Virus genome (UHGV): UHGV-0112899
Direction: 5' to 3' (one strand)
DNA: 64,000 bases
Source of the DNA: a virus
Of this stretch, positions 4,406-15,326 are shown piece after piece. The notes below the pieces were generated by a model, which was not told the origin of the DNA, did no database searches, and saw only the letters and a list, made by a program, of their open reading frames with translations. A program made the position numbers and the translations under genes. How positions within the stretch are numbered: the stretch's first letter is position 1; each line of letters begins with the position of its first letter.

Positions 4406-4621
4406 ATGGCTACTATCCCTACCCCAACTCATTCTGAATTTATCTGGCGTTTCTATTCCTGCCAAAAACACCTCTATATCTGCGTAATGGCTGCTACCGA
4501 AGCAGAGGCGCGCTCATACCTTCCCGAAGAACCCTGTATTTTTGCTGCTCGCTTCACTCTTGATGCGATGGAGATCCTCAATTACTGGAATCTGCCGATG
4601 AACTGCGTGGAGGTGCACTGA
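4406..4621 (+). CDS. small protein translationally coupled to antirepressor (icd-like by position)
   Basis: AGGAGG RBS; stop overlaps the Rha start (TGATG); paralog at 55481. Confidence 0.5.
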   Translation: MATIPTPTHSEFIWRFYSCQKHLYICVMAATEAEARSYLPEEPCIFAARFTLDAMEILNYWNLPMNCVEVH

Positions 4622-5562
4622 TGAATCTGTCCATCTCTCAAAAAGCGACAATGACCAGCATTGAGATCGCGGAACTGGTGGGAAGTCGTCACTCTGATGT
4701 TAAACGCAGCATCGAAAGACTTGTTGCTAAAGGAGTTATCCAACATACGCCATTGGCTACAGTTGAGAATAATCAATCACTTAGCCCTAATAAATACACA
4801 AAAGCCTATTTCTTCGAAGGCGAACAAGGCAAGCGCGATAGTATTATCGTCGTCGCGCAGCTCTCTCCGGAATTCACCGCCCGGCTGGTGGACCGCTGGC
4901 GCGAACTGGAGAATGTCAGGGGACCGTTAAAATCAAAAGCCGAAATCCTGGCTGAAATGGCGCAAATGCATCTTGAGCATGAACGCAGGATCAACGCCGT
5001 AAATGCCCAGGTAGCCGAGGTATCGGCACAAGTGTCCAGGGTCACCGAAACACTTGAGCAGATCAAGAAAGGCAATATTCCAGAAGGCTACATTGGCTAT
5101 CGCCAGTTGGCGGCAAAATGCGGCCTGACTGAAGCCAAATGCCGCAACCTGGTCAACGCTTACCGGATACCCACTGATACGCATGAGTTTTTAACTCCCG
5201 ACGGTTTGCTTGCGCGACGCTCCATTGTGGCCCTGGCCCCCTTCCGGAAAGCCTTTAAGCAGGTTATGTCGGAGGCAGAACCACGTAACAAACGCTGGTA
5301 TCATCCCAGGATGGGGCTATTTCAGGCCATTCACCATCCTGTGCCTGAAAGTCCAAAGGCAAACCTGTCGTTGCATACCGCCAGAGAGAAGATTAAAACA
5401 GGGTATGCAACCGTATGCCGTCGAGCATCCTGGCCTGAAAGTGTCTGGGTATGGCCCGAAAGAGGCTCACGGAAAAACTGGCGCACCATTCGCGACGGCA
5501 AGATCTGTGCGATTGATTTACAGCCAGAAGATGTAGCAGCGACCGACTGGATTGTTAGTTAA
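4621..5562 (+). CDS. Rha-family phage regulatory protein / antirepressor-like
   Basis: N-terminal SIEIAELVGSRHSDVKRSIERL (Rha-type); paralog at 55705; extra C-terminal domain present here. Confidence 0.65.
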   Translation: MNLSISQKATMTSIEIAELVGSRHSDVKRSIERLVAKGVIQHTPLATVENNQSLSPNKYTKAYFFEGEQGKRDSIIVVAQLSPEFTARLVDRWRELENVRGPLKSKAEILAEMAQMHLEHERRINAVNAQVAEVSAQVSRVTETLEQIKKGNIPEGYIGYRQLAAKCGLTEAKCRNLVNAYRIPTDTHEFLTPDGLLARRSIVALAPFRKAFKQVMSEAEPRNKRWYHPRMGLFQAIHHPVPESPKANLSLHTAREKIKTGYATVCRRASWPESVWVWPERGSRKNWRTIRDGKICAIDLQPEDVAATDWIVS

Positions 5563-5600: not shown

Positions 5601-5939
5601 GTGACCGGACACAGCAAAATGTATGCCACGAAAAAAATTGATTTCACTTATTCTTCCGCCACAATTGAGCGGCGCTTCACCCTCATTAGAGAGTTGGAAC
5701 TGTCAAAAGTCTGGTATCAAATTCTACTGGATGAAGAGTTCTCACTGATGATAATGGCTAAAAAAGAAGCAATGCCGAATGACCGGCATAAAGTCATTGC
5801 CAGCCTTGACCTGGTGACAAACAGATACTGGGAGACAGAGGAACTGCGTGAAGCGGGAGTAATTCGTGACCTGATGGAGAGTTCCGTTCCCCGCCGCTAT
5901 CGTGCGGGAAACGAAATCTCCGTGATTAAAGGGGCTTAA
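5601..5939 (+). CDS. hypothetical protein
   Basis: 112-aa ORF; GTG or downstream ATG start uncertain. Confidence 0.35.
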   Translation: MTGHSKMYATKKIDFTYSSATIERRFTLIRELELSKVWYQILLDEEFSLMIMAKKEAMPNDRHKVIASLDLVTNRYWETEELREAGVIRDLMESSVPRRYRAGNEISVIKGA

Positions 5940-6379
5940 AGCTCACCAGCACGCTGTTTTTCAAGCGTAGATTTAACATTGGGCGCTTTCCCTTTAAAAG
6001 AATGGAAAGTGCCACATTTTTCTGTTTTAACCTCGCGCAGAGCTTCGCCATCGGCGTTCTGCCATTGATGAGATAACGTCATATCACCGCGAGAAGGAAC
6101 ATCCAGCGAGTACAACGTGTAAGTTCCCCCCATCTCGGCATACTCCTGGAACACATAGCTCATTACGTCAGATTCAGTTTTCCGGTGCGCGTTATCAACC
6201 TTATTCCCATTCAGAAATATGGCGTTCGGATAGATTTTTATATCAAACCTACCGCACTTTACCTGCAAATTCCCAGCATTAGCAATCAAAGGAAAAAACA
6301 TTAATGCCGCTATAGCCAGCTTATTCAAGTTTGATGTCTTTGTTGAAGAAAATGGTTTCTCTTTTTTTATGCGTATCAT
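5936..6379 (-). CDS. secreted protein of unknown function
   Basis: N-terminal signal peptide ending LIANA-G; GGAG RBS 8 nt upstream of ATG 6379. Confidence 0.5.
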   Translation of the reverse strand: MIRIKKEKPFSSTKTSNLNKLAIAALMFFPLIANAGNLQVKCGRFDIKIYPNAIFLNGNKVDNAHRKTESDVMSYVFQEYAEMGGTYTLYSLDVPSRGDMTLSHQWQNADGEALREVKTEKCGTFHSFKGKAPNVKSTLEKQRAGEL

Positions 6380-6422
6380 TTCATTAACTCCATACATTGT
6401 TGTCTTTTCATCCAATTTGAGG

Positions 6423-7052
6423 TTAATTAGTACAATTCATTTTTGCAGCGACTTCGGCTACCCCACGATCAATGTAAGGCTGCTCACTTAATATCTTTTG
6501 GATCTCACTACGAATGCATTCCGCTGTAGGTTGCTTAGGTGCTTGTTTTTGCTTCGCGGATCGTTCAAGTTCCATCATGTTATTGAATCCTGCCACATCA
6601 CTTTGCCGAAGCATCCCTTTCCGGATAAGAAACTGCTGCCCTTCAGGCACCCAAGCCAGCATATACAAAGGCTGCAATAGATCTCCCATTCCTTGCTGAC
6701 GATAAAGCTCAAACTGCAACACGCCGTTACTTAACACCGACATTGTGTCTTTGGTGGAATACCCTGTCTTTTGTATGGCTTTGCCTGTTTCATCTGCTGC
6801 ATATGCAAATACACAGAACTCAATGTTGCTTTTAAAGAATGGCTCTACAGGTTTCAGCGGGATATTTTCTTTCTGGCAATAGTTTGAAACTTCATCAGGC
6901 GTATAGTTTGTTTTGGCGTTTCGCAACACCTTCAGCCCAGCCTCATACTTTGCAGGTAACGCGCCTGCATAGGCAGCATTAAGAGAAACTCCCCCCAATA
7001 TAACCGCGAGCACTGCTCCCAAAACCCTTAACTTCACAAAACCATCCTTCAT
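6423..7052 (-). CDS. secreted protein of unknown function
   Basis: signal peptide MKDGFVKLRVLGAVLAVILGGVSLNAAYA; same operon as 5936-6379. Confidence 0.5.
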   Translation of the reverse strand: MKDGFVKLRVLGAVLAVILGGVSLNAAYAGALPAKYEAGLKVLRNAKTNYTPDEVSNYCQKENIPLKPVEPFFKSNIEFCVFAYAADETGKAIQKTGYSTKDTMSVLSNGVLQFELYRQQGMGDLLQPLYMLAWVPEGQQFLIRKGMLRQSDVAGFNNMMELERSAKQKQAPKQPTAECIRSEIQKILSEQPYIDRGVAEVAAKMNCTN

Positions 7053-7267
7053 GTAAACAAACTGAAGTTTTATGTTACAAAAACAAACATCTACGCCAAA
7101 ATGACTTAGGCCAAATTCAGCGCGAATAAAAAATTCAAAAAAATTGTTGACACTATTCTGGAAATCACAATCTGGACAAAATCCATTGCGCAAACGGCTC
7201 CCGTTGAAGGTTCTTTTGACGACTAACTTTCAGCCGATGCGCGGTAGGGAGTCATAACGCCAAAGCA

Positions 7268-7291
7268 GGCCGCCATGTGCGGCCTTTTTTT
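7268..7291 (+). terminator. rho-independent terminator / attenuator
   Basis: stem ggccgc/gcggcc, loop catgt, T7 run; lies 27 nt upstream of the 7318 start. Confidence 0.5.
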
Positions 7292-7317
7292 GTGCCTGCT
7301 ATCGTGGAGTAAAAGCC

Positions 7318-7971
7318 ATGCAAAAGATCGCAATATTCAGTCTTTCTACTAACAAGCCGCTGATGGCTACGGCAGTCCTGAAAGACGGCGCGCTTGTAAT
7401 TGACAAAGTAAAGCCGCTCCCTGCATCTGCTATTGAACAAAAACGAAAAATTCCACCAGCAATTGCCGAGCTGCGTAAAAGTGAATTTAAGGTGCTGGTT
7501 GACGAAATCACGCCAACCATTTCAGCCGGTACAGGTGCCAGCCAGGTAACATTAAAAACACGGCACGCCGACGGCAGAGCAGCGATCATTGTCGGCATGG
7601 AGAGATACCGGGAGCTGAAACTACAAAGGCTGCTATCCCTGCCTGACAAGAACAAAGGGGCATTTGAGATCCCCGACTCTATCGTCGATACCGAATACAA
7701 CGGCAACGGTGAAGAGGTTTATCGAGTTAACTGGCAAGATATCCGACCAGAGCACATCCTGATGATTCTGTGCTGCTATGCAACGGTATACCACAATGTT
7801 GCCAGCGCGGATTACCTGAAACAAATGACAGGAGCGGTAGAGAAAGAAAACAAAGCAGGGATAATGGCCTCGTTCCTGTCCATTATCAGCGATCAAAAAG
7901 CTAAAGCAGGAAATACCCAACCAAAATCGCTGGCCGGGCAAGTAATTGATGAAGATACGGTGATACTTTAA
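7318..7971 (+). CDS. hypothetical protein
   Basis: 217-aa ORF with GGAG RBS. Confidence 0.5.
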   Translation: MQKIAIFSLSTNKPLMATAVLKDGALVIDKVKPLPASAIEQKRKIPPAIAELRKSEFKVLVDEITPTISAGTGASQVTLKTRHADGRAAIIVGMERYRELKLQRLLSLPDKNKGAFEIPDSIVDTEYNGNGEEVYRVNWQDIRPEHILMILCCYATVYHNVASADYLKQMTGAVEKENKAGIMASFLSIISDQKAKAGNTQPKSLAGQVIDEDTVIL

Positions 7972-8302
7972 TCAACTCAGTAGCTTTGTTAACTCCCTTA
8001 ATACCAGGTAGAAGAGTAACAAAAATACTAACGCCAGTATTTGCGTGGTCAACGAGGCGTTCATAAACAGAACAATTAGCTTTAACAATTCGAGAATAAC
8101 GTCCATGTCATTCACACTATTTAATTTTTAATCTACAGCCAGCAAACAATGAAGCTGGCCCCCGCATAAAGATTAATGAAAGTCACTTGTCACCAGTGAG
8201 GGGATTTATGAACCACATCCCCCTGAACTGGTGGACTGTCTGTTTCTCGCATTTCACACCCTGCATACAGTTCCCCCCAGGTTATGACTGTGAGGAACTG
8301 TT

Positions 8303-8632
8303 ATGAGTTACAGCAGGCTCGACGATCGATGCATTGAAGACGATGTGCTGCGCGCACTATTCCATCAGGAGATGATCAAGCGGGTATCGGAGTATCACTC
8401 CGATAATTTCCAGTACACGATAAAAATTGATGAGGTTTATCGCTCAGACCTGGCGGCCTATCGCGCCTATGGCAACGCTGATTTGCGCTGGGTATTTCGC
8501 GTGCTGGTGGGCCATGAGTCAGAAATGGAAGAAATGCCGGTCGGGACAACGTTAACTCTTCCTGACGCAGCATGGCTAAGAAACAAGATTCGCGATTACG
8601 CTGGCTCGGCACCGGAGATAGAAAATGCCTGA
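8303..8632 (+). CDS. hypothetical protein
   Basis: 109-aa ORF with GAGGA RBS; 8-nt overlap with the next gene. Confidence 0.5.
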   Translation: MSYSRLDDRCIEDDVLRALFHQEMIKRVSEYHSDNFQYTIKIDEVYRSDLAAYRAYGNADLRWVFRVLVGHESEMEEMPVGTTLTLPDAAWLRNKIRDYAGSAPEIENA

Positions 8633-9821
8633 CTTCCTGAAAAATCAGGACGGGCGATATATCACTGACGGCCTGTCCTCTAAGGATTTCACACGCGTAT
8701 TTGAACTCATCAGGAAAGAGCAAAACCGCAAACGCCGCCAGGCGCACAGGACACTCACGCCGGGCAGGCTTAGGAATAAATCAGCTGAAGACATTCTTAA
8801 GCTGGGGAAAAAGAAAGGCGGCACGTTCTTTACGCGTGACGATCTGAAAGGCTTCGAAAAGCTGCGAAGCAAAGCACGCGAAAAATATGACAGCAAGACG
8901 GCTGGCATCACATACGCACAACTGGTAGCGTCCAGCCAGGCTATCGATATTAAGCGAGCAAATAACGCCGTAGACGACGGTTCTGGTATCAAAAGAGCTA
9001 CGCCCGTATCTCTTCGTCACAATGTGATTAATATCCGCGTGGAAGCGTCCGATATATCCGTTCACCAGCACCACATTGTCCGGGTACGTTTTGAAGAATG
9101 GGATCAGATGGTCGATGACATCGCAGAAGACGATAAATCAGCCCTGAAAGTCACAAAATCACTGTGTGCCGGGCGAGTGTCTTTCGACTGTGACTGCGGT
9201 CGCCATCAATACTGGTATCGCTACATCGCCACTGCGGGTAACTTTGCCCTGGCCCCGCCAAAAGAATACGCCTATCCAAAAGTTCGCAACCCTAAGCTGC
9301 AAGGCGTCGCCTGTAAACATGTGATCCACTCAATGACACGACTACAGTCTGCCAGTTGGCAGATGAGTATTGCTCGTGCGCTACAAAAGGCTGCAACGCA
9401 AATTGCATTTGGTGACGATCGCCGCCGTACAACCAAACACTTCTCAAAAGAAGACGAGAAGGAGTTTAATCGCAATCGTAGCAGTAAAACGAACGTTGAA
9501 GCCGCCAAACGCGAATGGAGGCTCTATCAGAAGCGCCAGGCAGCTTTAAGTACAAAACTGGCGAAGGACAACGGCAAGATCGACAAGCTACGTGACCAAC
9601 TGACCAGGGCCAGAAAGTTGTCAGACGCACAGAAAAAACGAGCGGCAGCAAAAGAAGCGGCCTTGCAACGTGAGAAACAGAAAAACAAGGAGCTTCAGCA
9701 ACGCCTTGCCGATCAGTTCGCACTGAAGAAGCAGGCGTTCATTGATGCGCTGGTCATGGCAGGAACGTCACCTGGGCAAGCTGAAAAAATGTTTATGGAG
9801 TACGTGAAGAAAGGTTCTTGA
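8625..9821 (+). CDS. SWIM-like zinc-finger protein with Lys-rich coiled-coil C-terminus
   Basis: CDC...CKH motif (CxC-x39-CxH) followed by a basic coiled-coil tail. Confidence 0.45.
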   Translation: MPDFLKNQDGRYITDGLSSKDFTRVFELIRKEQNRKRRQAHRTLTPGRLRNKSAEDILKLGKKKGGTFFTRDDLKGFEKLRSKAREKYDSKTAGITYAQLVASSQAIDIKRANNAVDDGSGIKRATPVSLRHNVINIRVEASDISVHQHHIVRVRFEEWDQMVDDIAEDDKSALKVTKSLCAGRVSFDCDCGRHQYWYRYIATAGNFALAPPKEYAYPKVRNPKLQGVACKHVIHSMTRLQSASWQMSIARALQKAATQIAFGDDRRRTTKHFSKEDEKEFNRNRSSKTNVEAAKREWRLYQKRQAALSTKLAKDNGKIDKLRDQLTRARKLSDAQKKRAAAKEAALQREKQKNKELQQRLADQFALKKQAFIDALVMAGTSPGQAEKMFMEYVKKGS

Positions 9822-9855
9822 TTGACAACAAAGGCGGTCATACAGACCGCCGAAC

Positions 9856-10215
9856 TCATACACCAACCAGGCTTTCAAGAGGAATGCCAAACTGGGAATG
9901 TAAACGACGAATCATAGGTAACGTTAAATTTCGTGTTCCATTTAGCACTTCGTAAACACGATTTGACTTACCAATCGCCGGTTCCAGATCCTTCACGGTC
10001 AGCCCTTGCTGTTCCATACGGAATTTAATGGCCTCAATAGGTGATGGTGGCTCAATTGGGTAATGTTTTTTCTCGTACTCCTCAATGAGAAGACACATGA
10101 CCTCAAAGAAATCACCTTCCGGGGTGTTCATTTCCGGTTCGTTATCGAACATCGGTTCGACCGCACGCAGTGCGGCCTCATAATCTTGTTCTGTACGGAT
10201 AGGTTTAATGTTCAT
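9856..10215 (-). CDS. HigA-type (XRE HTH) antitoxin-like protein, orphan copy
   Basis: C-terminal LEPAIGKSNRVYEVLNGTRNLTLPMIRRLHSQFGIP resembles E. coli K-12 HigA-type HTH; no adjacent cognate toxin. Confidence 0.5.
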   Translation of the reverse strand: MNIKPIRTEQDYEAALRAVEPMFDNEPEMNTPEGDFFEVMCLLIEEYEKKHYPIEPPSPIEAIKFRMEQQGLTVKDLEPAIGKSNRVYEVLNGTRNLTLPMIRRLHSQFGIPLESLVGV

Positions 10216-10271
10216 TAATTCCAAAGGAAAGCCCACTTGTTAAGTGGGCTTTTTGTATGTGTTTTACTATA

Positions 10272-10610
10272 TCAGGCTGCTTTTTTATTCAGGTTCCGCT
10301 GAGAAATAAATTTTTCAGCAGTATTGATACGACTTAACTCTTCCTGAACGCGCATATCATTTTCGACTTCCCACAGGTCTACTGCGGTCTGAAGATTAAT
10401 CCAAAAATCTACAGAAGTATCGAATGCTTTTGCCAGGCGATATGCCATATCCATCGTTAGCTTACGATTATTATTAACAAGAGCACTTACGGTGTTACGA
10501 TGAACATGAAGTATTTCTGCTAACTCGTTGATCTTAAGCTCTAACGGCTCCAGGTATTCGTACAGCAGGATATCACCTACAGTCGTCGGTTTTCTGGTTG
10601 CCTGTTTCAT
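10272..10610 (-). CDS. higA: HigA antitoxin (XRE HTH)
   Basis: VGDILLYEYLEPLELKINELAEILHVHRNTVSALVNN...FWINLQ HTH signature; downstream of higB. Confidence 0.7.
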   Translation of the reverse strand: MKQATRKPTTVGDILLYEYLEPLELKINELAEILHVHRNTVSALVNNNRKLTMDMAYRLAKAFDTSVDFWINLQTAVDLWEVENDMRVQEELSRINTAEKFISQRNLNKKAA

Positions 10611-10681
10611 TTTTTGCCCTTACTAGCGTGCGTATTAAGTGGACTCTGGTCAGTACCCGGTCCATCCGCCGGGTATTTGTT

Positions 10682-10984
10682 TTAGTATTTGTGAGGGTCG
10701 AGATACAAGTCCTCGGCCTTTCCGTTAACCCACTTAAAAATTAACCTGTATTGCTTATTCACCCTTATTGATGAATAGCCGTTTAGCTTCCCTGACAATT
10801 CCTCATACCGATTACCTGGTGGTGATCTCAAGTCCTTCCAAGTAGTTGCAGCATTGATAATATCCAGCTTCCGCAACAATGTAATCTGAATATCAGAAGG
10901 TATCTTTTTGTGTGGTATTGAAAATTCAAAAAAATCATCAAGCCACTCATCCCTGAAATTCTTTATGTTAATCTTTTTGCTCAT
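10682..10984 (-). CDS. higB: HigB toxin (RelE/ParE superfamily)
   Basis: 100 aa; ...PPGNRYEELSGKLNGYSSIRVNKQYRLIFKW... signature; toxin-first gene order. Confidence 0.7.
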   Translation of the reverse strand: MSKKINIKNFRDEWLDDFFEFSIPHKKIPSDIQITLLRKLDIINAATTWKDLRSPPGNRYEELSGKLNGYSSIRVNKQYRLIFKWVNGKAEDLYLDPHKY

Positions 10985-11147
10985 CGATCATTTTATCCTC
11001 CATGATTATTAATGAATGTCATAATGATAGCGCACCGTTGCACCGTGCGCAAGTGCATATTGTAACAATTCCCCTCCTCCATCCAAAATCACAATCTCCC
11101 GAAAATCTTCCTTTCGATACCTGATAAATCGACCTTTGAGGACGCTT

Positions 11148-11939
11148 ATGGGCCGTTTTGATGAATGGCTTGCTGATGATGCAAGCCTGATGAGAAAGGG
11201 AACAGAACATGACAGCACGCAGAGAGAAGAGACAACGACGGTTGAAGCGAATGAAGGAAGCACAACGGAAAATGGGAATGTCAGTGCAGGGCCATTCAGT
11301 ATTCTGGAAGAGCACGCCGCCACCCAATCTAATAGCCATGATAATTGGCCTGATAATGCTGGTGACTCTGTTACGGAAGTGATTGAACCTGACATCGCTC
11401 CCCTACCGGCATCGCTCGCTAACAGAGAACCAAACCAGCAGCTTAAAACCCGATATAACGGACATAAAGCGTTCAACGACCAGATCCGCGCCGATTGGAT
11501 GCTCATTATTGAATCAAGCCCTGACGCGTTCGAGGCGCTTTTATACCGCCCGGCTGATGGCACCTATGGCGTCGTAAACGATGAAACAGGTGAAGAGTCT
11601 TTCACGCAACTGGACAACAACCAGCGTGAGCTTACCTATCTGGAACCGGAAATCGTATACGTCCTGGATAACCCGGACGGAAGGGATTCGTTTCATGCCA
11701 TTGATGCCGATGGAGAACAGGATGGTCTTGCTGATGAAGTGCTAATCCTGCGTATTGCTGCAAACAACGTACCTGTTGGTTCAATCCTGGAATGGAACGA
11801 AGAAATGGCGAATGGCCTCGCCCGCCGCTGGTGGTACGTGCATCGAATCTTCAGCTACGGAACACAACACGTCGGCTCCCTTTATTACTGCATCCCGGCC
11901 AGGAACTTTGATACCACTCAAAACGGAGTGATCGAATGA
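11148..11939 (+). CDS. hypothetical protein (possibly tail/baseplate-associated)
   Basis: ATG 11148 after GAGGA; ATGA coupling to the next gene. Confidence 0.4.
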   Translation: MGRFDEWLADDASLMRKGTEHDSTQREETTTVEANEGSTTENGNVSAGPFSILEEHAATQSNSHDNWPDNAGDSVTEVIEPDIAPLPASLANREPNQQLKTRYNGHKAFNDQIRADWMLIIESSPDAFEALLYRPADGTYGVVNDETGEESFTQLDNNQRELTYLEPEIVYVLDNPDGRDSFHAIDADGEQDGLADEVLILRIAANNVPVGSILEWNEEMANGLARRWWYVHRIFSYGTQHVGSLYYCIPARNFDTTQNGVIE

Positions 11940-12703
11940 CACCCAACAAAACTCTCCTGTCCCGCATTGGCGAGTGGCAGACAACGCGTACTGGAAAATT
12001 CCAGACAACTGGTCTGGAAAGAGTGGATAACGCTTTTGCTACGCTAATCAGTGACATTTTTTCTGACGTAACGCTGGTGGAACCAGCAAAAGAAGAAAGG
12101 CGCTTTGCATCATTCCTGAGTCGCCCACCAGCGGAGCGTGTTTATGTTGCCCGTTTTGATAACGCGGTCGAGTTCCTTAAAGCGGTTCGCCGTGCTAATG
12201 CCGGGCAAGGGAGAAAGCCAGAGAATCCGAACATTAATCGCGATGCACTCCCTCTGATTAATATCTCGCGCTCAATGGATATCAGCTATATCAACAATGA
12301 CCAGCAGATAGACCGCAAAAGATGTGATCACTTCTGCGAACCTGGCAGCGGTATGCCTTTAGTAGCCCTGGAATACACCCAGGCAAATCTGACGTATGAC
12401 GTTACATTAATGGCGACGGATAAGGCGACCATGAGTCTGATGTGTAACTCGCTAGGAGCACGTCTTCGCTTGATGGCAGGAACGCAGTTTGAAGCAACAA
12501 CCCCGCTGGTACGAGTACCCGTCCCGCTAATTTGCGCGATTCAGGATGCTAAAGACATCAGTTTTACTGATGTTTCAGCCCCAATTGGGGAAGAGCGTAT
12601 TTATGCTGCACAAACGGCAATTAGTGTTATAGCAGACGTGATCACCGCCTGGGAGCTGGACGCGAAACGAATTATTACTGAAACCTCTCTGAGAATGGGG
12701 TAA
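11936..12703 (+). CDS. hypothetical protein (possibly tail/baseplate-associated)
   Basis: 255-aa ORF coupled to flanking genes. Confidence 0.4.
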   Translation: MTPNKTLLSRIGEWQTTRTGKFQTTGLERVDNAFATLISDIFSDVTLVEPAKEERRFASFLSRPPAERVYVARFDNAVEFLKAVRRANAGQGRKPENPNINRDALPLINISRSMDISYINNDQQIDRKRCDHFCEPGSGMPLVALEYTQANLTYDVTLMATDKATMSLMCNSLGARLRLMAGTQFEATTPLVRVPVPLICAIQDAKDISFTDVSAPIGEERIYAAQTAISVIADVITAWELDAKRIITETSLRMG

Positions 12704-12706
12704 GCC

Positions 12707-13687
12707 ATGTCCCAGGAGCTACAGCAATACTTTCTACAGTCCATTACCATCAACGGAAACAAAGTGCCCAGGGAGTGGATATTCACTGCCGTATATGTGG
12801 AAAAGGCAAACCTGCGAGCACCATTGCTGAAACTGGAAATTCACGACATTACCGGCACCATAATTGATGACTGGAAAACAAAATACGGCGCAGCACTGGT
12901 TGCAGAGATGGGAGATCCACAAGGCAATTCAGGCACGTTTAAAACAACTTTTTTCGTAACATCTGCGGTGCTGGCTGGTGATGTCATCACGGTCATTGCA
13001 GTCAGTGAAGACGTTCGGATATTTAAGATCCCCGCTATACGGGCTAACCTGCATACAAATAAAACGCCTGATACCATTTTCAAGACGTATACCGGTACAC
13101 TGAAAATCGCCTCCAGCGCATTGAAACGAAGCTGTACGTACCATCTTTCCGCCGGGGAAAAACCCTCCAAAATGCTATCTGAAATGGCCCGCGATAAAGG
13201 CGCTTTATGCTGGGCCTGCCGTGGTCAGTTTAACTTTTATACATTAGCTGACCTTATGAAAGCCAAACCATCATTCACCTATGAAGGGAACAACCCCAGG
13301 GCGGAATACACGATTTCAAAAATGAGGCTTATACAGCAAGAGTATGCCGTTACGGCAAATACTCAGTATCGATTTACCGGCTATTCAATGACTGAAGGCT
13401 ATGTCGAATATGGCGATAGCTCACTTCCAATACGCTATATATCCGATCCGGATATGGAAACTCTGCGCAATATGCAATTGTCGCTCGTACCCAAAATGGA
13501 TATTGAGGTCGCGGGTAATCCCGACATCACGCCGGGAATGGTTATTGAGATCCTCGTGTATCGTTACGACCAGGAAAATAAGCTGGACGAATCGTTGCCT
13601 CGTAAGCTGCTGGTGAAAAACGTAGCCCATTTTGAAGACCGGATCGGCTATACAACACGAATGATATTAGGAGTACCCAACCAGTGA
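12707..13687 (+). CDS. putative baseplate hub / tail protein
   Basis: 326 aa, immediately upstream of the spike-like gene; assignment by position and size only. Confidence 0.3.
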   Translation: MSQELQQYFLQSITINGNKVPREWIFTAVYVEKANLRAPLLKLEIHDITGTIIDDWKTKYGAALVAEMGDPQGNSGTFKTTFFVTSAVLAGDVITVIAVSEDVRIFKIPAIRANLHTNKTPDTIFKTYTGTLKIASSALKRSCTYHLSAGEKPSKMLSEMARDKGALCWACRGQFNFYTLADLMKAKPSFTYEGNNPRAEYTISKMRLIQQEYAVTANTQYRFTGYSMTEGYVEYGDSSLPIRYISDPDMETLRNMQLSLVPKMDIEVAGNPDITPGMVIEILVYRYDQENKLDESLPRKLLVKNVAHFEDRIGYTTRMILGVPNQ

Positions 13688-14361
13688 AACGCAGAGCGCA
13701 AATCGTAGGGACCAAACACCCTGCCGGACTTATGCGAGCGCAGGTCCGCATACTGCCTGACTGGGACGGTGTACCGGATGAAGACCTCCCATGGGCAGAG
13801 TATCAAATGCCTATCGGTAACGCCTTTACACCTACAGTCAGCGGCGATTTAGTCTGGGTCGAATTTCCTTATCTGGATGCTAAAGGCAGGATAGACACGC
13901 GCCGACCTTTAATCGTTGGCGCGGCGCAGGATGCCCCAGGAGGCGTACCAAATGTGCCTCCGGAAGCCTCCGGACAAGGAAGTGGATGGTCGCCAGAAGA
14001 AGTTGATGGTGCTCCTGCCCGCCCCCAGTTTTCGGCGACTGAAGATTTTGTTATTCACCGAAACAATATCCTTGAGGTCAGAACGGCTGGCGGTGGCTAT
14101 GAAATAGCAAACACCGCCGCAGGATCAAGGATAGGGATGAACGAATCCGGCCAGATTTACATAATCGGCCCGGCGAATATAGTGCTTAATGCTGGTGGTG
14201 AGGTTAACGTCAAATCAAGCAGCAAAACCAATGTATCCTCTGATGGAGACGTTAATGTAAAAGGCAGCAATGTAACCGTCGCCGCTGATGGTGATATAGC
14301 CCTGAAAGCTGGTGGCGCGCTAAAAGCAACAGCGAGCAATTTCTCCTTTGTAAAGGGATAG
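13684..14361 (+). CDS. baseplate spike protein (gpV-like)
   Basis: N-terminal VRILPDWDGVPDEDLPWAEY...GDLVWVEF OB-fold-like motif and C-terminal beta-helix-like repeats. Confidence 0.45.
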   Translation: MKRRAQIVGTKHPAGLMRAQVRILPDWDGVPDEDLPWAEYQMPIGNAFTPTVSGDLVWVEFPYLDAKGRIDTRRPLIVGAAQDAPGGVPNVPPEASGQGSGWSPEEVDGAPARPQFSATEDFVIHRNNILEVRTAGGGYEIANTAAGSRIGMNESGQIYIIGPANIVLNAGGEVNVKSSSKTNVSSDGDVNVKGSNVTVAADGDIALKAGGALKATASNFSFVKG

Positions 14362-14367
14362 CAAAAT

Positions 14368-14415
14368 GCAAAACTGTGTTAGATAATTGAGTTTTATTTT
14401 CTAACACAGTTTTGC
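14368..14415. promoter_or_regulatory. 48-bp near-perfect inverted repeat with operator core
   Basis: gcaaaactgtgttagataa ... ttttctaacacagttttgc between the spike gene and rdgC. Confidence 0.5.
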
Positions 14416-14420
14416 GAAAC

Positions 14421-15326
14421 ATGAGATTAGTCGCCTTTAAAAACATATACGTCTATCGCCTTGCCCGCGAAATTAAACTGGACTCAACCACCGTTAGTGA
14501 TGCCTTAAGCCAATTCACATTCACTCCATGCGCATCACAAGAAATGGCAAAAGTCGGATGGGTGCCGGTTCTGGCTGACAACCTGATCCATGAATACCAC
14601 GGTTTTCTACTTCTCCAGCAACAGCGAGAAATTAAGCTCCTGCCCTCCCATGTCATTAAGGAGGAAGTGCAGAAAAAAGTGGAAAAGCTCGAAAATGAGC
14701 AATCTCGTAAGCTGAAGAAGTCGGAAAAAAACACCCTGAAGGATGAAGTTCTCCACTCTTTGTTGCCTCGCGCATTCACTCGCAAATCATTGTCGCGAAT
14801 CCTTATTGATCGCGACAACTATCTGGTCTTCGTAGAAGCTTCCAGCGCCAGAAAAGCAGAAGAAATGCTGGCGCTCTTACGTAAATCACTTGGCAGCCTG
14901 CCAGTGATTCCATTCACGCCGATAGAACCGCTCGAAATGACTATGACCGAATGGTTCAAGTCAACATTTCCTCAAGGCTTTAAAGCAGGCGAAGAAGCCA
15001 TATTGAAATCTCTGTTCGATGACGGCGGCGCAGTTCGTTGCAAGAAAGTAGACCTACAGTCAGAGGAAATAATGACTCATATTGAAGCCGGAAAAGTTGC
15101 AACAACAGTTGCAATCAACTGGCAGGACCGCGCGACCTTCAGGTTAAACGATGACATGAGCATCAAAGCACTGACGTTTTGCGATGATCTCTATGACCAG
15201 AACGATGACATCGACCGTGAAGATGTTGCCCAGCGATTTGATGCTGACTTCATTCTGTTCACAAGCGAATTATCCGCGATGTTTAGCTCGCTGGTGGAGG
15301 CCATTGGCGGTGAAGCAGAGCATTAA
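14421..15326 (+). CDS. rdgC: recombination-associated protein RdgC
   Basis: strong full-length similarity to E. coli RdgC (FKNIYVYRL, FTPCASQEMAKVGWVP, KLKKSEKNTLKDEVLHSLLPRAF, DREDVAQRFDADFIL). Confidence 0.85.
   Translation: MRLVAFKNIYVYRLAREIKLDSTTVSDALSQFTFTPCASQEMAKVGWVPVLADNLIHEYHGFLLLQQQREIKLLPSHVIKEEVQKKVEKLENEQSRKLKKSEKNTLKDEVLHSLLPRAFTRKSLSRILIDRDNYLVFVEASSARKAEEMLALLRKSLGSLPVIPFTPIEPLEMTMTEWFKSTFPQGFKAGEEAILKSLFDDGGAVRCKKVDLQSEEIMTHIEAGKVATTVAINWQDRATFRLNDDMSIKALTFCDDLYDQNDDIDREDVAQRFDADFILFTSELSAMFSSLVEAIGGEAEH

What the first reader, a model, noticed from the sequence alone, without database searches (positions are those of the whole stretch)
8303..9821. Two-gene operon of unknown function: 109-aa protein plus SWIM-like zinc-finger protein
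The genes overlap by 8 nt. The larger product has a CDC...CKH arrangement resembling a SWIM zinc finger and a long Lys/Arg/Glu-rich coiled-coil tail, suggesting nucleic-acid or protein binding. The pair sits in an accessory stretch next to higBA and the exported-protein genes, a typical location for defence or anti-defence cargo. No known family was recognised.
Basis: inference. Interest (0 to 1): 0.6.

Follow-up and report, generated by a model that had tools for sequence, protein, structure and literature searches.

The report
Phage P1-type tail genes 26/25
The two genes are not mystery defence cargo but the well-known tail-building genes 26 and 25 of a P1/D6-type phage-plasmid; the only open point is that the larger protein (gp25), whose role in P1 is still unresolved, carries a strictly conserved SWIM-like zinc-finger core.

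Summary
Observation confirmed: ORFs 8303-8632 (109 aa) and 8625-9821 (398 aa) overlap by 8 nt, and the larger one has CDC-x38-CKH and a basic helical tail.

Interpretation not supported. The window is a D6-like P1-family phage-plasmid. The pair are orthologs of P1 gene 26 (43% identity; solved in PDB 9ay5/9vzk as the six-copy baseplate "plug", T4 gp53-like) and P1 gene 25 ("tail stability", 55% identity; phrog_1722, 2e-195). Both P1 genes were found as amber mutants.

They open a conserved module, mat-26-25-7-24-6-5, that keeps its order in about 27 of 30 lineages. A gp26-like gene occurs in 240 of 243 loci. No PADLOC defence match. The real accessory DNA is the higBA insert next door (9822-11135).

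gp25 is the only product between genes 26 and 5 never located in P1 virion cryo-EM. I infer it is a zinc-stabilised tail-assembly factor or a low-copy, disordered virion component.

Ordinary, already-annotated genes; modest residual interest.

The parts
8303..8632 (+). Ortholog of P1 gene 26: small acidic (pI 4.9) baseplate 'plug' protein, T4 gp53-like
   Evidence: phrog_1269 'baseplate wedge subunit' 1e-35. PDB 9ay5_S/9vzk 'Gp26' E=2.4e-18. 43% identity to P1 gp26 and 92% to D6 orf75. P1 cryo-EM places six copies between wedge and hub.
8625..9821 (+). Ortholog of P1 gene 25 ('tail stability' protein): basic protein (pI 10.1) with a helical N-terminal region, a beta-sheet plus SWIM-like core, and a long C-terminal helix
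   Evidence: phrog_1722 'tail protein' 2.2e-195. 97.5% identity to D6 orf74 and 55-56% to P1 gp25. AlphaFold2 model pLDDT 81.5.
8886..9410 (+). Conserved core of gp25 (residues 88-262) holding the putative zinc ligands C189, C191, C230, H232 (codons at about 9189-9197 and 9312-9320) and a family-specific conserved 38-residue spacer
9495..9758 (+). Long charged C-terminal helix of gp25 (residues 291-378)
   Evidence: DSSP on the model gives helices at 291-314 and 316-378. pI 10.4 and 33% K+R+E. The P1 GenBank note records myosin-like coiled-coil similarity.
7318..7971 (+). Homolog of P1 mat (maturation control), the conserved upstream neighbour of the module
   Evidence: D6 annotation 'similar to P1 gene mat'. 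phrog_1837 4.5e-90. Sits upstream of gp26 in most lineages.
9822..11135 (-). Lineage-specific cargo insert that splits the operon between genes 25 and 7: an HTH gene (9856-10236), higA (10272-10610) and higB (10682-10984)
   Evidence: HigB PF05015 1.2e-34. HigA TIGR02607 7.9e-30. The HTH protein matches positions 1-119 of 402 of PD-Lambda-2_B, 7e-43. The 25/7 junction overlaps by 1-4 nt in other lineages.
11136..14361 (+). Rest of the module: homologs of P1 gene 7 (head-tail stopper), 24 (tail terminator), 6 (baseplate hub) and 5 (spike)
   Evidence: PHROG tail families. PDB hits 9ums_B Gp7 (7.5e-43), 8jan_y Gp24 (2.5e-17) and 9vzk_1 Gp6 (9e-76). D6 annotation.

Best explanation
The pair is the start of the tail/baseplate morphogenesis module of a D6-like, P1-family phage-plasmid.

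The 109-aa protein is the gp26 'plug'. Six copies of this small acidic T4 gp53-like protein glue the baseplate wedge ring to the central hub.

The 398-aa protein is the gp25 'tail stability' protein. It is basic and is built around a beta-sheet plus a split SWIM-like Cys2-Cys-His module, flanked by helical arms. I infer that the module binds zinc.

Shown here: orthology; conserved gene order and tight gene coupling; invariance of the four ligand residues; absence of gp25 from all solved P1 virion structures.

Taken from the literature: P1 genes 25 and 26 were found as amber mutants and are treated as essential; gp25 gave a weak mass-spectrometry signal in purified virions.

Inferred: gp25 uses the zinc-stabilised core as a protein-protein adaptor during tail assembly, so that the long sheath is built and held in its extended, metastable state. 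Its likely partners are its neighbours gp26 and/or the tail-end proteins gp7 and gp24. It is then either released (a non-virion assembly factor, about 45%) or kept at low copy in a disordered place such as the tube lumen with the tape measure (about 30%). It is not a defence or anti-defence gene.
For: Identity: PHROG hits 1e-35 and 2.2e-195. 84% nucleotide identity to phage D6 over 96% of window 7000-14500. D6 and P1 annotations. Pairwise identities of 43% and 55% to P1 gp26 and gp25. Gp26 solved in PDB 9ay5/9vzk. 98.7% identity to 92-94 kb non-mobilizable E. coli plasmids.

Core status: a gp26-like gene is present in 240/243 loci and lies immediately upstream of gp25 in 26/30 lineages. The order mat-26-25-7-24-6-5 is kept in about 27/30. 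The 25/7 junction overlaps by 1-4 nt in nearly all lineages.

Role: genes 25 and 26 are amber-defined essentials (PMC10695390). gp25 gave two peptides by LC-MS/MS and no HHpred match (PMC9024508). Whole-virion cryo-EM assigns gp26, gp7, gp24, gp6 and gp5 but never mentions gp25 (PMC12810830). gp25 has no PDB relative.
Against: No experiment or structure places gp25 anywhere, so the mechanism is inference.

The MS signal for gp25 (2 peptides) equals that of gp7, which turned out to be a genuine six-copy structural protein. That argues against a purely non-virion chaperone.

Metal-site geometry could not be measured because model coordinates are not exposed.

CRISPRi knock-down of P1 genes 25 and 26 lowered plating only about 10-fold. 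The authors attribute this to ineffective roadblocks.

The exact EM phenotype of gene 25 ambers could not be read: Walker & Walker 1983 and Lobocka 2004 are not held.
Confidence: 0.8

Rival explanations
1. gp25 is a genuine low-copy virion component that cryo-EM cannot resolve. One possibility is a basic helical protein lying with the tape measure protein Sit in the electronegative tube lumen or hub cavity and leaving on infection. Another is a flexible element at the baseplate periphery.
For: It was detected by LC-MS/MS at the same two-peptide level as gp7, which later proved to be a structural six-copy protein. It is strongly basic (pI 10.1) with an 88-residue helix. Sit, UpfB and the fibres were also unresolved in the 3.2 A maps.
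Against: No density has been assigned in three independent P1 structural studies. The 175-residue globular core is bulky for a roughly 40 A channel (my estimate). A two-peptide hit could be contamination.
Confidence: 0.3
2. The pair is defence or anti-defence cargo of the phage-plasmid.
For: The pair lies beside a higBA module and an HTH gene related to the N-terminus of PD-Lambda-2_B. Pfam gives no hit. SWIM domains occur in some nucleic-acid-handling proteins (general knowledge).
Against: Both proteins belong to PHROG tail families. gp26 is a solved baseplate protein. P1 genes 25 and 26 are amber-defined morphogenesis genes. The pair is core and syntenic in 240/243 loci across 30 lineages. 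There are no PADLOC hits. The accessory DNA is the separate, opposite-strand insert at 9822-11135, which is absent from most lineages.
Confidence: 0.02
3. gp25 is a nucleic-acid-binding regulator: a nucleoid-associated or MvaT-like protein, or an RNA or DNA chaperone for late gene expression or DNA ejection.
For: The homolog in Xanthomonas phage Rb1/GYRb1 is annotated as an MvaT/P16 regulator. The protein is highly basic. SWIM was originally proposed as a possible DNA-binding finger (general knowledge).
Against: No Pfam or NCBIfam regulator model hits it. The MvaT label is an automatic annotation with no supporting evidence that I could find. Its fixed place inside the tail module and the P1 'tail stability' annotation point to morphogenesis.
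Confidence: 0.05

Closest known systems
Bacteriophage P1 gp25 ('tail stability' protein; D6 orf74; phrog_1722)
   Same: 55% identity over 359 residues and 97.5% to the D6 protein. Same length (398 vs 405 aa). Same position directly after gene 26. Same invariant CxC...CxH core and the same charged C-terminal helix.
   Different: The C-terminal 40-60 residues do not align with P1. Here, as in D6, the gene is separated from gene 7 by a toxin-antitoxin insert, whereas in P1 the two genes are 3 nt apart.
Bacteriophage P1 gp26 (baseplate 'plug'; PDB 9ay5, 9vzk), reported as similar to T4 gp53
   Same: 43% identity over 96 residues. phrog_1269. Same position as first structural gene of the module, just upstream of gp25.
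   Different: 16 residues shorter at the N-terminus than P1 gp26 (109 vs 125 aa). Overlaps gene 25 by 8 nt rather than being separated from it by 9 nt.
SWIM zinc finger (Pfam PF04434; examples ZSWIM8 in PDB 9rwz and E. coli YehQ)
   Same: Same ligand order, C-x-C ... C-x-H. The second half lies at the start of a helix in a G-x-x-C-K-H-[VI] context. The finger is preceded by a beta-sheet. ZSWIM8 is the best structural match. Pfam SWIM is the commonest weak hit.
   Different: The spacer is 36-43 residues and is itself highly conserved (GRHQYWYRY.AT.GN...E..FPK.RNP). YehQ's fingers have spacers of 5 and 6 residues. Never reaches Pfam's threshold. Found in a phage tail-morphogenesis context, which I could not find reported for SWIM.
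Non-virion or poorly located baseplate/tail assembly factors of other myophages, for example T4 gp51, gp26 and gp28 (recalled from general knowledge; Gonzales et al. make the same analogy)
   Same: Genetically required for tails but not assigned in the mature particle. Encoded among hub and baseplate genes.
   Different: No sequence or fold relationship was tested or is known. This is a functional analogy only.

Membership tests
P1 gp25 / phrog_1722 tail protein family | Significant full-length sequence similarity to P1 gp25 | tested here: met
   phrog_1722 E=2.2e-195 over residues 2-396. BLASTP against P1 gp25: 55% identity, 1e-136.
P1 gp25 / phrog_1722 tail protein family | Located in the tail module between gene 26 and gene 7 homologs | tested here: met
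   Window order is mat-26-25-[TA insert]-7-24-6-5. The same order holds in about 27/30 lineages.
P1 gp25 / phrog_1722 tail protein family | Loss gives defective or unstable tails (amber phenotype) | not testable with these tools
   Known for P1 only, from the literature. The primary EM paper is not held.
P1 gp26 / T4 gp53-like baseplate plug | Sequence similarity to the structurally solved P1 Gp26 | tested here: met
   PDB 9ay5_S/9vzk E=2.4e-18. 43% identity. phrog_1269 1e-35.
P1 gp26 / T4 gp53-like baseplate plug | Six copies bridging the wedge ring and the hub in the baseplate | not testable with these tools
   Shown for P1 by cryo-EM. Inferred here by orthology.
SWIM zinc finger (PF04434) | C-x-C-x(n)-C-x-H signature, conserved in relatives | tested here: met
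   C189/C191/C230/H232 invariant. Present in 133/133 representatives. However n=36-43, against 5-6 in YehQ.
SWIM zinc finger (PF04434) | Scores above Pfam's gathering threshold (19.6 bits) | tested here: not met
   No hit for the window protein. The best family member scores 15.3 bits, and 7/48 members give sub-threshold hits.
SWIM zinc finger (PF04434) | Fold similarity to a solved SWIM domain | tested here: inconclusive
SWIM zinc finger (PF04434) | Binds one zinc ion through the four ligands | not testable with these tools
Needs metal analysis.
Anti-phage defence or anti-defence system | Match to a known defence protein family | tested here: not met
   PADLOC gives 0 families for both proteins.
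Anti-phage defence or anti-defence system | Accessory, variable distribution among related elements | tested here: not met
   A gp26-like gene is present in 240/243 loci and the module order is fixed. The variable element is the neighbouring insert.

The most novel reading that the evidence does not exclude
gp25 defines a large family of zinc-dependent tail-morphogenesis proteins built on a split SWIM finger. The family has about 650 clusters at 50% identity and sits in phage genomes of about 45-118 kb. Its conserved 36-43-residue insert forms the working surface. The protein acts as a transient assembly factor, or as a lumenal, ejected component, that is needed to keep very long contractile tails extended. 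On this reading it is the last unplaced essential protein of the P1 tail, and SWIM would gain a role in virion assembly.
Probability: 0.35. Interest if true: 0.5.

Novelty: already known. Interest (0 to 1): 0.27.

Why it matters
For the genome scan, this removes a false lead. The pair is core tail machinery of a P1/D6-type phage-plasmid, and these genes are already annotated as tail and baseplate proteins in phage D6 and in RefSeq plasmid records.

A smaller point may interest P1 and contractile-tail specialists. gp25 is the one essential product between genes 26 and 5 that three recent cryo-EM studies have not placed, and an HHpred search could not classify it. The invariant, split SWIM-like Cys2-Cys-His core found here gives a concrete handle. 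Metal analysis and ligand mutants could test how a 220-nm sheath is assembled and kept from firing.

The work also marks the 25/7 junction of D6-like elements as a cargo insertion site.

Tried and rejected
- Pfam on both proteins: no hits.
- NCBIfam: only a spurious coiled-coil hit far below cutoff.
- PDB sequence searches for gp25, with a single sequence and with a 48-sequence profile: only chance or coiled-coil hits.
- Foldseek of the full model against the PDB: nothing below E=0.6.
- The P1 late-promoter pattern (LP26 -22 box plus -10) is not enriched in the window: 6 matches against 6.5 expected, none upstream of 8303. The upstream region does not align with P1. The inverted repeat at 8183-8199 is unique in the window. 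The promoter therefore remains unidentified.
- The 'SWIM' hit in a Xanthomonas phage paper turned out to mean swimming motility.
- Two Pfam scans of 20 distant members gave no SWIM hit. The signal comes from other subgroups.
- hhalign of the ABMM1-clade downstream ORF against the gp7 family: no relation, 0.2%.
- hhalign of the family profile against YehQ: inconclusive.
- Lobocka 2004 and Walker & Walker 1983 are not held.
- Model coordinates are not exposed, so Cys/His geometry could not be measured.
- The third large protein search, the genome scan and the metagenome scan were deliberately not spent.

Full report
**1. Observation**

They overlap by 8 nt (ATGCCTGA), and each is preceded by a Shine-Dalgarno-like sequence.

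They are real genes. The large-database search returns 301 relatives of the 398-aa protein (best E=1.6e-253) and 37 relatives of the 109-aa protein (best 7e-63).

The CDC...CKH arrangement (C189, C191, C230, H232) and the Lys/Arg/Glu-rich tail are both present. Residues 263-398 have pI 10.3 and 34% K+R+E, and the AlphaFold2 model is almost continuously helical over 291-378.

**2. What the genes are**

PHROGs is not silent. The 109-aa protein matches phrog_1269 'baseplate wedge subunit' (1e-35). The 398-aa protein matches phrog_1722 'tail protein' (2.2e-195).

Window 7000-14500 is 84% identical at the nucleotide level to Escherichia phage D6, a P1-family phage, over 96% of its length. It is 98.7% identical to 92-94 kb E. 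coli plasmids. In all, 122 related plasmid records match, and 120 of them are predicted non-mobilizable. The window is therefore a D6-like phage-plasmid.

The D6 record annotates the two genes as 'similar to P1 gene 26' and 'similar to P1 gene 25'. In P1 they are the first two genes of the late operon 26-25-7-24-6-5, driven by the late promoter LP26. There gp26 is annotated 'baseplate' and gp25 'tail stability', with a note about a myosin-like coiled coil.

Pairwise identities:
- 43% to P1 gp26 and 92% to D6 orf75.
- 55% to P1 gp25 and 97.5% to D6 orf74.

**3. What is known about the P1 proteins**

P1 Gp26 has been solved (PDB 9ay5 and 9vzk); the window protein matches it at E=2.4e-18. Two cryo-EM studies place six copies between the wedge ring and the central hub. 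One calls it T4 gp53-like (bioRxiv 10.1101/2025.07.21.665459). The other calls it the 'plug' that attaches the wedge to the central region (PMC12810830).

[quoted passage not shown] CRISPRi knock-downs nonetheless lowered plating only about 10-fold and were not polar on genes 7-24-6-5.

gp25 itself remains unplaced:
- Virion proteomics found it with two peptides, and HHpred gave no role (PMC9024508).
- The 2026 whole-virion study says it identified almost all proteins from head to tail. It assigns gp7 (stopper), gp24 (terminator), gp6 (hub), gp5 (spike) and gp26 (plug), and never mentions gp25.
- The window homologs of gp7, gp24 and gp6 hit PDB chains 9ums_B, 8jan_y and 9vzk_1. The gp25 homolog has no PDB relative, either as a single sequence or as a 48-sequence profile.

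**4. Core gene or cargo?**

I fetched 243 loci encoding gp25 relatives. All contigs are about 45-118 kb. I clustered the gp25 proteins at 60% identity, which gave 30 lineages.

An iterated profile finds a gp26-like gene in 240 of the 243 loci. It lies immediately upstream of gp25 in 26 of the 30 lineages. In most of the others it is 0.1-2.5 kb upstream on the same strand.

The whole order mat-26-25-7-24-6-5 is kept in about 27 of the 30 lineages. The gp25/gp7 junction overlaps by 1-4 nt in nearly all of them. In the most divergent group (Acinetobacter phage ABMM1-like), only the 26-25 pair stays detectably together, and it sits between portal-like and capsid-like genes. The ORF downstream of gp25 in that group is conserved with the one in Xanthomonas phage Rb1, but it is not detectably gp7-like.

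This is the signature of core morphogenesis genes. It is the opposite of accessory cargo. Neither protein hits any PADLOC defence model.

The accessory DNA in this neighbourhood is the opposite-strand insert at 9822-11135. It carries:
- higB (PF05015, 1.2e-34);
- higA (TIGR02607, 7.9e-30);
- an HTH gene that matches the first 119 of 402 positions of PD-Lambda-2_B.

Only the D6-like lineage uses the 25/7 junction as an insertion site. Inserts there range from 294 to 2878 bp, and some D6-like loci have none.

**5. The SWIM question**

The four candidate ligands are invariant in 21 homologs and in 48 sequences down to 23% identity. In that second alignment the only invariant residues are G94, C189, C191, E214, P218, N222, G227, C230, K231 and H232, apart from the start methionine.

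An exhaustive profile search of 1.84 billion cluster representatives finds 651 family members. All 133 full-length ones among the best 150 have CxC-x36-43-CxH, and most have a spacer of 37.

At the sequence level, Pfam SWIM (PF04434) is the family hit by the most members: 7 of 48, against at most 2 for any other. It maps correctly. In P0169 it covers both halves in one stretch. In P0185 it covers the CxC half only. In P0204 it covers the CxH half only. It never reaches the 19.6-bit cutoff, and the best score is 15.3 bits.

At the structure level:
- The full model (pLDDT 81.5) has no Foldseek match in the PDB.

A verified canonical SWIM protein, E. coli YehQ, has spacers of only 5 and 6 residues. 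Its profile comparison with the family is inconclusive.

My reading is that the core is a divergent, split SWIM-like finger whose long spacer is itself the most conserved part of the protein. Membership of PF04434 is not established, and zinc binding is inferred.

**6. Mechanism**

Shown: the orthology, the synteny, the invariant ligands and the absence of gp25 from solved virions.

Inferred: gp25 is a basic protein (pI 10.1), whereas its upstream partner gp26 is acidic (pI 4.9). I infer that gp25 acts as a zinc-stabilised protein-protein adaptor in tail assembly and is needed for a stable extended tail.

I split the unresolved part three ways:
- About 45%: a transient assembly factor that is not kept in the virion. 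This fits its absence from 3.2-3.5 A maps that account for the ordered density.
- About 30%: a low-copy disordered component, for example with the unresolved tape measure in the tube lumen. This fits the MS signal, which equals that of the genuine six-copy protein gp7.
- The remainder: other roles.

A regulator role rests only on an automatic 'MvaT' label in one phage record. A defence role is contradicted by everything above.

**7. Verdict**

The genes are already known and annotated as tail-module genes. The residual interest is the conserved SWIM-like core in the one P1 tail protein that still has no assigned place, which I could not find reported.

Noticed in passing
window 9822-11135 (minus strand); L001 5815-7928: The 25/7 gene junction is a cargo insertion site only in the D6-like lineage. 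Other lineages overlap the two genes by 1-4 nt, while D6-like loci carry inserts of 294-2878 bp in many sizes, or none. The window's insert holds higB, higA and an HTH gene. D6 has the same genes plus an extra 242-aa ORF (orf73) that has no PADLOC hit.
   Followed up: partly
window 9856-10236 (minus strand): This 126-aa HTH protein matches positions 1-119 of the 402-position PADLOC profile PD-Lambda-2_B (7e-43). It looks like a stand-alone or truncated N-terminal domain of a defence-system protein sitting next to higBA. Whether it is functional, or a regulator of the toxin-antitoxin pair, is unknown.
   Followed up: partly
L003 5758-6879 (Xanthomonas phage Rb1, PQ569993): The gp25-family protein of this phage is annotated 'transcriptional regulator MvaT / P16 subunit'. 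A 2026 paper calls the corresponding ORF the one best conserved with Acinetobacter phage ABMM1. This is probably a mis-annotation of a tail-morphogenesis protein.
   Followed up: partly
L004 4299-5709 and loci of clusters 0 and 26 (e.g. L089, L085): In the ABMM1-like clade the gp26-like/gp25-like pair lies between a terminase-plus-portal-like block and a capsid-like gene, not with hub and spike genes. It is followed, with an 11-nt overlap, by a conserved 182-aa ORF. That ORF is homologous to the 167-aa ORF of Rb1 (hhalign 93.5%) but is not detectably gp7-like.
   Followed up: partly
window 8183-8199: An inverted repeat, TCACT-N7-AGTGA, lies about 100 nt upstream of the gene 26 homolog. It is conserved in D6 and unique in the window. 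The P1 LP26 late-promoter pattern is not recognisable here, so the promoter of the pair is unidentified.
   Followed up: partly
window 9833-9851: A GC-rich hairpin followed by a T-run on the minus strand sits just past the end of the HTH gene. It looks like the terminator of the minus-strand insert operon. On the plus strand it follows the gp25 stop codon without a T-run, so read-through from gene 25 toward gene 7 is not obviously blocked.
   Followed up: no
P1 genes 26/25 (literature), relevant to window 8303-11136: CRISPRi roadblocks in P1 genes 26 and 25 were not polar on genes 7-24-6-5 (PMC10695390). An internal promoter before gene 7 would explain this, and would also explain why the D6 lineage tolerates an insert there. 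This is my inference and was not tested.
   Followed up: no
window 7318-7971: A homolog of P1 mat (maturation control) lies directly upstream of the gene 26 homolog here and in most of the 30 lineages. In P1 itself the divergently transcribed pmgL-pmgS genes lie there instead. The ancestral module may therefore begin with mat.
   Followed up: no
window 14412-15326 and 4621-5562: An RdgC-family protein (PF04381, 1e-100) follows the spike gene. D6 annotates the corresponding gene as similar to P1 hrdC. An Ant/Rha-type anti-repressor (phrog_63, 1e-57) lies upstream of the region. Two minus-strand ORFs at 5936-7193 match PHROGs of unknown function and replace the simB-like gene of D6.
   Followed up: no
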